DNA from: Escherichia coli
Lineage (GTDB): Bacteria; Pseudomonadota; Gammaproteobacteria; Enterobacterales; Enterobacteriaceae
DNA length: 64,000 nucleotides
Assembly: GCF_050320075.1 (NCBI RefSeq)
Contig: NZ_CP190018.1
Reading direction: 5' to 3' (one strand)
Part shown: piece after piece, positions 62,391-63,981 of the stretch
How positions within the stretch are numbered: position 1 is the stretch's first letter
Layout of the letters: every line of letters begins with the position of its first letter
Notes under the pieces: model-generated
What the model was told of the DNA's origin: nothing
Databases searched by the model: none
Seen by the model: only the letters and a program-made list of their open reading frames with translations
Position numbers and translations under genes: made by a program

Positions 62391-63088
62391 ACCCTTGCTC
62401 CTTTCAGCCCAAACTTAGCTTTGATTTCTGCGATCTTCGCCAGAGCCTGAGCACGATTTAGAGGTCTACCGCCCATGACAGGAAGTTGTTTTACTGGTTC
62501 AGGTATAGCCTCACCACGGTTAATTCGTGCGGTCATACAGGACAGTTCATCGGCAGCCTTGCGCCGTAATTCCGCGTCAGTCAACGCATTGGCCCGCATG
62601 TTCTGATACAGGTTGGTAACCAGCCAGTAGTGCGCGTTTGATTTCCACGGATAAGACTCTGCATCCGGATACAGCCCGCGCTTCCGGCAATACTCGTAAA
62701 CCATATCAACCAGCTCGCTGGCGTTTGGCAGCCCAGCGGTAACGGATGCTTCTTCCCGGCACCAGGCGACAAACTGCCCGGGTGATGGCAGGAATGGTCG
62801 ATTCTGCCGACGGGCTACGCGCATTCCAGCGTTAACCTGTTCCATTGTGGTGATCCCGTTTTCCCGAAAAGCCAGCACCCACTGGCGGCGGATTTCGTTC
62901 AGTTCATTCTGGTCACGGTTAGCCAGGCTCGCCGGGAAAGTTGCCAGTAACTGGCTGAACACACCGTTGATGATCTGCGCTACCTGCTGTACCTGTGGCT
63001 TTTCGTCGTACTGTTCCGGCATGTTGTTGGCGATCCGACGCATCTGCTCACGGTCAAAGTTAACCATCTGTGCGGCGATGTTTTTCAT
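62387..63088 (-). CDS. P: replication protein P (DnaB helicase loader)
   Basis: 233 aa, MKNIAAQMVNFDREQMRRIANNMPEQYDEKPQVQQVAQIINGVFSQLLATFPASLANRDQNE near-identical to lambda P. Confidence 0.95.
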   Translation of the reverse strand: MKNIAAQMVNFDREQMRRIANNMPEQYDEKPQVQQVAQIINGVFSQLLATFPASLANRDQNELNEIRRQWVLAFRENGITTMEQVNAGMRVARRQNRPFLPSPGQFVAWCREEASVTAGLPNASELVDMVYEYCRKRGLYPDAESYPWKSNAHYWLVTNLYQNMRANALTDAELRRKAADELSCMTARINRGEAIPEPVKQLPVMGGRPLNRAQALAKIAEIKAKFGLKGARV

Positions 63089-63981
63089 AGATCCACCCCG
63101 TAAATCCAGTCAGTGTTTGTCAGGTCGAGTTTTGGTTTGCCGACTGTCACGCCAGCCTGTTGCTTGTTCCGGTTGATTTCGAGCTGGGTCCACTTGTCGC
63201 GGAGTTTGGCCGGACTCAGCACGTTACCGGACCAGAAGTTGTCCTGGCAGGCCCAGCGGAACAGTACACACATGTCGCGGTGGTTACGTCCATCACGTTC
63301 ACGCATCAGACGGATATCGTTAGCCCACCCTGCAAAATTCGGTTTTCTGGCTGATGGCGCGATGGTCTTCACCATGTCAAACATCCACTCTGCGGCGGTC
63401 AGGTCTTCTGCTGTCCCCCACTTGCTGCCGCTCTGAATTGCAGCATCCGGTTTCACCACAGGAAGATCGTTTTCTGGTTGGTCAGAGGATTCGCCAGAAT
63501 TCTCGGACGAAAAAGGTTTTATATTGTCTTTTGTTAGTTTGTCTTTTGTGTTTACCTGATTCGGGTAAACGCCTTTACCTGATTTGGGTAAACTTTTTTT
63601 ACCTGATTCAGGTAAATTTACCTCTTTCAGGTAAACTTTATTTTTCTTACCTGATTCGGGTAATGTTGACCATTCACTGACCACATTATTAATGCCGGTA
63701 TTCCGCCCGCTCTGAATAAAAATCCCACGCTTTACCAGAACACTTTTTGCAGCAGAACACTTGTGCGGCAATATCCCGGTTAATTCGGAAAGTTGCTCGT
63801 TGCTAACCCAATCCAGTTTTTTATTAAAGCCATATGTTTTGCGCATGACAGCCAGAAAGACCAGAAGCTGGTGCTGTGTTAATCCGGCCAGCATCACAGC
63901 TTCCAGCAACTCATTTGCAATGCGCGTATAACCATCATCGAGATCTGCCACGCGCGGCTCCTTTTGTGCCTCATCCGGCAC
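63085..63981 (-). CDS. O: replication initiator O (non-lambda N-terminal iteron-binding domain, lambda-like C-terminal P-interaction domain)
   Basis: 298 aa; C-terminal 130 aa (...SGESSDQPENDLPVVKPDAAIQSGSKWGTAEDLTAAEWMFDMVKTIAPSARKPNFAGWANDIRLMRERDGRNHRDM...) match lambda O; N-terminal half and embedded iterons differ. Confidence 0.93.
   Translation of the reverse strand: MPDEAQKEPRVADLDDGYTRIANELLEAVMLAGLTQHQLLVFLAVMRKTYGFNKKLDWVSNEQLSELTGILPHKCSAAKSVLVKRGIFIQSGRNTGINNVVSEWSTLPESGKKNKVYLKEVNLPESGKKSLPKSGKGVYPNQVNTKDKLTKDNIKPFSSENSGESSDQPENDLPVVKPDAAIQSGSKWGTAEDLTAAEWMFDMVKTIAPSARKPNFAGWANDIRLMRERDGRNHRDMCVLFRWACQDNFWSGNVLSPAKLRDKWTQLEINRNKQQAGVTVGKPKLDLTNTDWIYGVDL
63551..63665. repeat. replication origin iterons inside gene O: five copies of an 18-20 bp near-palindromic repeat
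   Basis: tttacctgattcgggtaaac, tttacctgatttgggtaaac, ttacctgattcaggtaaa, tttacctctttcaggtaaac, cttacctgattcgggtaatg; adjacent AT-rich stretch at 63480-63550. Confidence 0.85.

What the first reader, a model, noticed from the sequence alone, without database searches (positions are those of the whole stretch)
63085..63981. Chimeric O initiator with non-lambda ori iterons
The C-terminal domain of O (P-interaction) is lambda-like, but the N-terminal iteron-binding half and the five embedded iterons (tacctgattcgggta type, 63551-63665) differ from the lambda TCCCTCAAAACGAGGGA iterons. This is a modular specificity swap. The replicon probably has different incompatibility from lambda while still using lambda-type P and host DnaB loading.
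Basis: partly seen in the sequence, partly recalled or inferred. Interest (0 to 1): 0.35.

Follow-up and report, generated by a model that had tools for sequence, protein, structure and literature searches.

The report
Common non-lambda origin inside prophage O gene
This is the replication-initiator gene of a lambda-like prophage, carrying its own origin repeats of a different type from lambda's; the layout is a textbook module swap, and this version is found in about 42% of complete E. coli genomes, so it is ordinary.

Summary
A minus-strand O gene (63085 to beyond 64000, cut by the window end) carries five TTACC-N7-GGTAA dyad repeats at 63552-63663. These are the only five such sites in 64 kb (0.07 expected by chance). 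An AT-rich stretch follows them.

Compared with lambda O:
- The N-terminal Phage_rep_O domain is 48% identical.
- The C-terminal domain is 96.5% identical.
- The downstream P protein is 97.9% identical.
- DNA identity jumps from about 50% to about 95% within 63550-63500, the AT-rich stretch.

Iterons 2-5 keep lambda's spacing (19/24/23 against 20/24/23 bp). The repeats are conserved as DNA, not only as codons.

Relatives show the modularity. Klebsiella phage GZ7 has the same N-domain and iterons, but a different C-terminus and a DnaC-like loader. SEN34 and other E. coli alleles join other N-domain/iteron types to the lambda-type C-terminus and P.

This allele lies in 2,294 of 5,426 complete E. 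coli genomes, in 15 sequenced phages at 97-98.5% identity, and in a 7,825-member protein cluster. A different origin specificity from lambda is inferred, not tested. Interest is low.

The parts
63085..64000 (-). O-type replication initiator gene. It is incomplete in the window: the true ATG is about 14 nt beyond 64000, giving a predicted 309-aa protein.
   Evidence: The frame is open to the window end. Pfam Phage_rep_O, E=9.6e-34. It is 100% identical to E. coli YZLc1-3 over the shared part. The start was inferred from L001/L004.
63670..63954 (-). N-terminal origin-binding domain (Phage_rep_O, predicted winged helix).
   Evidence: Pfam match to residues 16-110 of the window translation. The AlphaFold2 model shows helices then a beta-hairpin, pLDDT 62-86. 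It is 48% identical to lambda, 83% to GZ7 and 60% to P22 gp18.
63647..63663 (.). Iteron 1 (first in the direction of O transcription): TTACCCGAATCAGGTAA on the coding strand. It is the extra copy relative to lambda's four.
   Evidence: It falls in a 30-nt insertion relative to lambda in alignment A1. It lies 29 bp upstream of iteron 2, as in GZ7.
63618..63634 (.). Iteron 2: half-sites intact, central bases divergent (TTACCTGAAAGAGGTAA on the coding strand).
63599..63615 (.). Iteron 3.
63575..63591 (.). Iteron 4.
63552..63568 (.). Iteron 5, adjacent to the AT-rich stretch.
63510..63550 (.). AT-rich stretch with ACAAAAGACAA repeats (presumed unwinding region). It also holds the mosaic junction with lambda and with GZ7.
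   Evidence: GC is 0.32-0.38 here against about 0.55 in the flanks. Repeat D3. Identity to lambda ramps from 0.5 to 0.9 across 63550-63500. Homology to GZ7 ends at about nt 495 of O. The motif is shared by the lambda, P22 and GZ7 origins.
63085..63509 (-). Lambda-type C-terminal (P-binding) part of O.
   Evidence: 96.5% amino-acid identity to lambda O residues 156-299. DNA identity is 0.9-1.0.
62387..63088 (-). P gene (lambda-type helicase loader). Its start overlaps the O stop as ATGA.
   Evidence: Pfam Phage_lambda_P, E=8e-62. 228/233 identical to lambda P. The overlap was read.
62088..62390 (-). ren gene, the end of the lambda-like block.
   Evidence: 88% identical to lambda Ren. Identity to lambda collapses below about 62125.

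Best explanation
This is the replication module of a lambda-like (DLP12/phage-82-like) E. coli prophage. It comprises an O-type initiator with the origin embedded in the middle of its own gene, followed by a lambda-type P helicase loader.

Proposed mechanism, by homology with lambda: dimers of the N-terminal winged-helix domain bind the five dyad-symmetric TTACC-N7-GGTAA iterons. The resulting nucleoprotein complex stresses the adjacent AT-rich stretch. The lambda-type C-terminal domain then recruits P bound to host DnaB.

The N-domain and its iterons form one exchangeable cassette of different sequence type from lambda's. The C-domain and P form a second cassette that is almost identical to lambda's. 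The two are joined in the conserved AT-rich sequence.

Shown here: the anatomy, the domain identities, the junction, the DNA-level constraint on the repeats, and the co-variation of N-domain type with iteron type across relatives. Inferred: actual binding, origin firing, and lack of cross-reaction with the lambda origin.
For: - Repeats: five TTACC-N7-GGTAA sites lie within 112 bp and nowhere else in 64 kb (0.07 expected).
- Geometry: the dyad symmetry and the 19/24/23-bp spacing of iterons 2-5 match lambda's (20/24/23) and P22's (20/24/23).
- AT-rich stretch: it lies immediately next to the array.
- Domains: Phage_rep_O domain at E=1e-33, and P at E=8e-62.
- Identity to lambda: N-domain 48%, C-domain 96.5%, P 97.9%, with a sharp junction at 63550-63500.
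- DNA-level constraint, window against Klebsiella phage GZ7: third-codon identity is 54% in the N-domain, but 82% at all three codon positions in the iteron array. Within the iterons 78/85 bases are identical, against 15/27 in the spacers.
- Co-variation of recognition helix and iteron type: ILPHKCSAAKS goes with TTACC-N7-GGTAA (E. coli, Klebsiella, Salmonella, Xenorhabdus). MAPTKCSTAKNE goes with TTACC-N5-GGTAA (P22). KHHTHCSTAKNS goes with TTAGC-N7-GCTAA (SEN34). LPVKRCNEAKLE goes with TCCCTC-N5-GAGGGA (lambda).
- Partner tracks the C-terminus: lambda-type C with P (window, SEN34); GZ7-type C with an IstB/DnaC-like AAA+ loader.
- Functionality: the same module at 97-98.5% identity occurs in 15 sequenced phage genomes, including 4A7, Lambda_4C10, Perceval and the PhiR series.
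- Literature: the N-terminal DNA-binding and C-terminal P-binding domain model is described in PMC6022878, and different iterons for different O-like proteins in PMC8022706.
Against: - No binding or replication assay exists for this iteron type in the literature I could search.
- No solved structure of any O protein was found by sequence.
- The structural model is mediocre (mean pLDDT 53), and Foldseek gave no hit at E<=0.001; only weak hits to winged-helix regulators.
- By analogy with Stx phages, not all five repeats need be strongly bound (PMC7466680).
- Whether this particular prophage is inducible is unknown.
Confidence: 0.85

Rival explanations
1. The repeats are only a by-product of a repetitive peptide (LPESGKK...) in a disordered linker of O and have no origin function.
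For: The repeats are translated into a repeated peptide in a region the model predicts as disordered (residues 119-198, pLDDT<50).
Against: - Each unit is a DNA palindrome, which a peptide repeat does not require.
- Conservation against GZ7 is equal at all three codon positions and is concentrated in the 17-mers (92%) rather than the spacers (56%).
- Position, spacing and the adjoining AT-rich stretch match the experimentally defined lambda origin.
Confidence: 0.03
2. The module is a decaying remnant of a cryptic prophage (as in K-12 DLP12) and no longer initiates replication.
For: The neighbourhood (ren, emrE, ybcK, ybcN, ninE, ybcO, rusA) is DLP12-like. Rare alleles with only 2-3 iterons exist in other genomes.
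Against: - O (as far as the window shows) and P are intact and overlap as ATGA.
- Sequenced phage genomes carry the same module at 97-98.5% identity.
- The window holds long ORFs of sizes typical of lambda-like tail, head and terminase genes at 27-56 kb (sizes only, not annotated here).
Confidence: 0.08
3. The N-domain still recognises lambda-type iterons (broad specificity), so there is no change of replicon specificity.
For: The two N-domains are homologous (48%) and share invariant positions. Geometry of the array is conserved.
Against: - The half-sites are unrelated (TTACC against TCCCTC), and the central spacer differs in length (7 against 5 bases).
- The predicted recognition helix differs at the variable positions that track iteron type across 17 relatives.
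- From my own knowledge of the classical genetics (Furth and Yates 1978, cited in PMC6022878), O function is type-specific among lambda, phi80 and 82.
Confidence: 0.04

Closest known systems
Bacteriophage lambda O protein and the lambda origin
   Same: - Phage_rep_O N-domain, with the origin embedded mid-gene.
- Dyad iterons with 19-24 bp spacing, followed by an AT-rich stretch.
- C-domain 96.5% and P 97.9% identical; ATGA overlap of O and P.
   Different: - N-domain only 48% identical.
- Iterons are TTACC-N7-GGTAA instead of TCCCTC-N5-GAGGGA.
- Five copies instead of four: one extra upstream copy in a 30-nt insertion.
O genes of Escherichia phages 4A7 / Lambda_4C10 (genus Bievrevirus), Perceval, 1W, 3W and the PhiR series
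   Same: The whole O gene is 97-98.5% identical, with the same five iterons (checked in Lambda_4C10). In Lambda_4C10 the same O-P-ren-emrE-ybcK order is annotated. These phages share the nin region with the window at 95-97% identity, about as close as phage 82 is.
   Different: Only point differences. The records annotate the protein as O but do not annotate the origin repeats.
Klebsiella phage GZ7 O protein
   Same: N-domain 83% identical. The same iteron type sits at identical positions in the gene (352/381/400/424/447), with the same AT-rich motif.
   Different: The C-terminus is unrelated (22%), and the downstream partner is an IstB/DnaC-like AAA+ loader rather than P.
Salmonella phage P22 gene 18 protein and origin
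   Same: It is the closest experimentally studied N-domain (60-65% identical). Its iterons share the TTACC/GGTAA half-sites and lambda-like spacing, followed by the same ACAAAAGACAAT repeats.
   Different: - Central spacer of 5 rather than 7 bases, and four copies.
- Different C-terminus.
- The partner is the DnaB-like helicase gp12.
Stx-phage (933W, P27) O proteins and origins
   Same: They also carry extra copies beyond lambda's four (six in all), with the O protein correspondingly longer (PMC7466680).
   Different: Their iterons and N-domains are of lambda type. Here the type itself differs.
Phage 82 O/origin (classical lambda-82 hybrids)
   Same: From memory and from the title of Furth and Yates 1978 (cited in PMC6022878): type-specific O with a lambda-compatible P function, which is exactly the architecture seen here. 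The window's nin region is 96% identical to the phage 82 record X92588.
   Different: I could not obtain the phage 82 origin sequence, so identity with the classical 82 origin is an untested lead.

Membership tests
Lambda O-type initiator with intragenic origin | N-terminal Phage_rep_O (PF04492) domain | tested here: met
   E=9.6e-34, profile positions 1-95 of 95.
Lambda O-type initiator with intragenic origin | Array of dyad-symmetric iterons inside the initiator's own coding sequence, just after the N-domain | tested here: met
   Five TTACC-N7-GGTAA sites at nt 352-463 of the gene, 0.07 expected. The constraint is at DNA level.
Lambda O-type initiator with intragenic origin | Iteron spacing of about two helical turns, and an AT-rich stretch on the promoter-distal side | tested here: met
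   Spacing 29/19/24/23 against lambda's 20/24/23. GC 0.32-0.38 at 63500-63560.
Lambda O-type initiator with intragenic origin | C-terminal P-binding domain and an adjacent P gene | tested here: met
   C-domain 96.5% and P 97.9% identical to lambda. Pfam Phage_lambda_P. ATGA overlap.
Lambda O-type initiator with intragenic origin | Initiator binds the iterons and the region fires as an origin | not testable with these tools
   Needs gel-shift or footprinting and a miniplasmid replication assay.
Lambda-origin specificity group (lambda, 434, Stx phages) | Iterons of the TCCCTC-N5-GAGGGA type | tested here: not met
   Lambda iterons against window iterons. The half-sites are unrelated.
Lambda-origin specificity group (lambda, 434, Stx phages) | N-domain closely similar to lambda O | tested here: not met
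   48% identity. DNA identity is about 50% above 63550.
P22 gene 18 / gene 12 module | Iterons of TTACC-N5-GGTAA type, with a DnaB-like helicase as downstream partner | tested here: not met
   The half-sites are shared, but the spacer is 7 rather than 5 bases, and the partner is lambda-type P.
Classical phage 82 origin type | Sequence identity of the iterons and O N-terminus with phage 82 | not tested
   The phage 82 origin sequence was not found in the collections. Only the nin-region record X92588 is held, 96% identical to the window. No named phage 82 protein appeared.

The most novel reading that the evidence does not exclude
The TTACC-N7-GGTAA iteron and its cognate N-domain may be a biochemically uncharacterised origin-specificity class. 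It would also be the commoner of the two N-half types counted here among P-dependent replicons in E. coli prophages (42% of complete genomes, against 24% for the lambda type). The same cassette is reused with at least two different helicase-recruitment partners. The conserved ACAAAAGACAA AT-rich motif may serve both as the unwinding element and as the recombination joint.
Probability: 0.4. Interest if true: 0.25.

Novelty: already known. Interest (0 to 1): 0.12.

Why it matters
It matters little beyond bookkeeping. The finding correctly marks the replication origin of a lambdoid prophage, and illustrates modular exchange between the origin-recognition and helicase-recruitment halves of O. That principle dates from the lambda/phi80/82 hybrid work of the late 1970s.

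Three practical points follow:
- Genome annotations give the protein only a generic name ("replication protein") and leave the origin unmarked.
- RefSeq start codons for this gene are inconsistent (309 against 339 aa).
- Because this allele is so common in E. coli, plasmid or phage engineering that relies on lambda O/origin specificity should expect P-compatible but O-incompatible resident prophages.

Tried and rejected
- Literature search for the iteron sequence itself and for "ori82": no relevant paper. Older papers were not held (Tsurimoto and Matsubara 1981), and Moore et al. 1981 was not attempted because it is a subscription-journal paper.
- Tried to decide whether this is the classical phage 82 origin. 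Only the phage 82 nin fragment X92588 is in the phage collection, and no phage-82-named protein appeared in two protein searches or in the cluster listing. This stays unresolved.
- PDB sequence search with the full O protein: no hit.
- AlphaFold2 with a 17-sequence alignment: only the N-domain was moderately confident. Foldseek against the PDB gave no hit at E<=0.001, only weak winged-helix regulators. I use this as consistent with a winged helix, not as proof of one.
- Promoter/terminator scan of 62000-64000: nothing above background. tRNA scan of the window: none.
- The Genome Research 2025 paper on lambdoid phages (PMC12315714) mentions O-only modules but nothing on this allele.
- Rejected the idea that the repeats are merely a peptide repeat, and the idea of a rare recent chimera.

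Full report
**What is in the sequence**

The region 62088-64000 encodes three genes on the minus strand:
- an O-like gene, ending at 63085;
- a 233-codon P gene (62387-63088);
- a ren gene (62088-62390).

The O stop and the P start overlap as ATGA. The O frame stays open to the last base of the window. In E. coli YZLc1-3, which is 100% identical over the shared part, and in phage Lambda_4C10, an ATG preceded by GGGAGG lies about 14 nt beyond position 64000. This gives MANTAEIFNF... and a 309-aa protein.

**The repeats**

TTACC-N7-GGTAA occurs five times, at 63552, 63575, 63599, 63618 and 63647, and nowhere else in 64 kb. Shuffles give 0.07 on average, and none of 100 reaches five. Each unit is a 17-bp imperfect palindrome. 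The 63618 copy keeps both half-sites but differs in the centre. The array and the next 40 bp (63510-63550) are AT-rich, with GC of 0.30-0.38 against about 0.55 in the flanks.

**Comparison with lambda**

| Part | Amino-acid identity to lambda |
|---|---|
| O N-domain | 48% |
| O linker | 31% |
| O C-domain | 96.5% |
| P | 97.9% |
| Ren | 88% |

- Pfam places a complete Phage_rep_O domain at residues 16-110 of the window translation (E=9.6e-34) and Phage_lambda_P in the next gene.
- At DNA level, identity is about 0.5 above 63550. It ramps to 0.9 across 63550-63500, then stays at 0.9-1.0 down to about 62125.
- The window's iterons 2-5 align column for column with lambda's four iterons. The spacing is 19/24/23 bp against lambda's 20/24/23.
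- Iteron 1 sits in a 30-nt insertion.
- Lambda's repeats are ATCCCTCAAAACGAGGGA, so the half-sites are unrelated.

**Are the repeats constrained as DNA?**

Klebsiella phage GZ7 has an O N-domain 83% identical, with the same iteron type at identical gene positions. Between the two genes:
- third-codon identity is 54% in the N-domain, against 88-90% at the first and second positions;
- in the iteron array all three codon positions are 82% identical;
- within the 17-mers 78/85 bases are identical, against 15/27 in the spacers.

That pattern is what a DNA binding site gives, not a peptide repeat.

**Modularity**

- Homology to GZ7 ends at about nt 495 of O, in the same AT-rich segment where homology to lambda begins.
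- The GZ7 C-terminus is unrelated (22%), and its downstream gene is an IstB/DnaC-like AAA+ protein.
- P22 gp18 is 60-65% identical in the N-domain. It has TTACC-N5-GGTAA repeats with 20/24/23 spacing and is followed by the DnaB-like gp12.
- Salmonella phage SEN34 is 60% identical in the N-domain. It has TTAGC-N7-GCTAA repeats joined to a lambda-type C-terminus (77%) and P.
- An abundant E. coli allele (P0195) joins yet another N-type to the lambda C-terminus, at the same T-K-E/D motif.
- Across 17 aligned relatives, the residues around the invariant Cys86 track the iteron type. This is the third helix of the predicted winged helix.
- The ACAAAAGACAA motif after the iterons is shared by all types and encodes an invariant T-K-D.

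**Mechanism**

By homology with lambda, the N-domain binds the iterons as dimers, the complex destabilises the AT-rich stretch, and the C-domain recruits P-DnaB. The domain model is summarised in PMC6022878. PMC8022706 states that different O-like proteins bind different iterons.

- The structural model supports a winged helix in the N-domain (helices at 47-60, 72-79 and 83-95, hairpin at 99-108, pLDDT 62-86) and a disordered linker at 119-198. It is weak overall.
- Foldseek gave only sub-threshold hits, all to winged-helix regulators.
- No O structure is in the PDB by sequence.
- Binding, firing and non-cross-reaction with the lambda origin are inferred.

**How common and how known**

| Query | Complete E. 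coli genomes with a match covering at least 80% of the query (of 5,426) |
|---|---|
| This N-half plus iterons (nearly all at 95% identity or more) | 2,294 |
| Lambda-type N-half | 1,325 |
| Shared C-half | 3,214 |

- Fifteen sequenced phage genomes carry the full gene at 97-98.5% identity.
- The protein belongs to a 7,825-member cluster named "replication protein".
- The prophage context (O-P-ren-emrE-ybcK...ybcN-ninE-ybcO-rusA) is DLP12-like.
- The nin region is 96% identical to phage 82.
- From my own knowledge, the classical lambda-82 hybrids showed a type-specific O with a lambda-compatible P, the same architecture as here. I could not obtain the phage 82 origin sequence, so that identity is a lead only.
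- No paper in the searchable library prints this iteron.

**Verdict**

It describes a textbook, very widespread allele rather than something new. The only open point is whether this iteron type has ever been characterised biochemically.

Noticed in passing
window 61688-62074 (minus strand; likely ATG at about 62020): An EmrE small multidrug-resistance efflux gene sits inside the prophage between ren and ybcK, as in K-12 DLP12. The same gene is annotated in the sequenced phage Lambda_4C10, so a phage genome carries emrE.
   Followed up: partly
window 59906-61432 (minus strand): A 508-aa YbcK-type recombinase family gene lies in the early-right operon, downstream of emrE.
   Followed up: no
L001 2897 against 2987; L004 5897 against 5987 (just beyond window position 64000): Public annotations disagree on the O start. 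The 339-aa form starts at an ATG that overlaps the stop of the upstream ydaT-like gene as ATGA. The 309-aa form starts at an ATG preceded by GGGAGG and aligns with the lambda, GZ7 and SEN34 starts. Both forms are in the same protein cluster.
   Followed up: partly
L004 2586-4187 and 5361-5900 (source-like genome, outside the window): In the 100%-identical genome, a SIR2-family gene sits between the kil-like gene and the repressor. A YdaT-domain protein occupies the position of cII, upstream of O.
   Followed up: no
window 63510-63550; L005 1888-1915; L006 1964-2000: The short repeat ACAAAAGACAA(T), directly after the iterons, is conserved across origin types with unrelated iterons. It encodes an invariant T-K-D in all 17 aligned O proteins. 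It coincides with the recombination joints to lambda and to GZ7.
   Followed up: partly
proteins P0141, P0143, P0146, P0013 (related loci): The number of iteron-encoded peptide units varies among close relatives. There are about 2-3 in some rare E. coli alleles and more than five in a Salmonella allele, which suggests gain and loss of iterons by recombination between repeats.
   Followed up: partly
protein P0195 (E. coli, seen on 146 contigs): A third N-domain type, with a different repeated linker peptide (VTKSVTKTVT), is joined to a lambda-type C-terminal half (SSENSGE... onward) that is identical to lambda's.
   Followed up: no
window 62516-62590 (inside P): A short patch within the otherwise 93-100% lambda-identical P gene drops to 70-83% DNA identity. 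This suggests a small internal mosaic segment.
   Followed up: no
window about 27000-56500: Long minus-strand ORFs (1159, 859, 801, 641 and 533 aa) have sizes typical of lambda-like tail, tape-measure, portal and terminase genes. The prophage therefore looks complete rather than a DLP12-like remnant. This rests on ORF sizes only.
   Followed up: no
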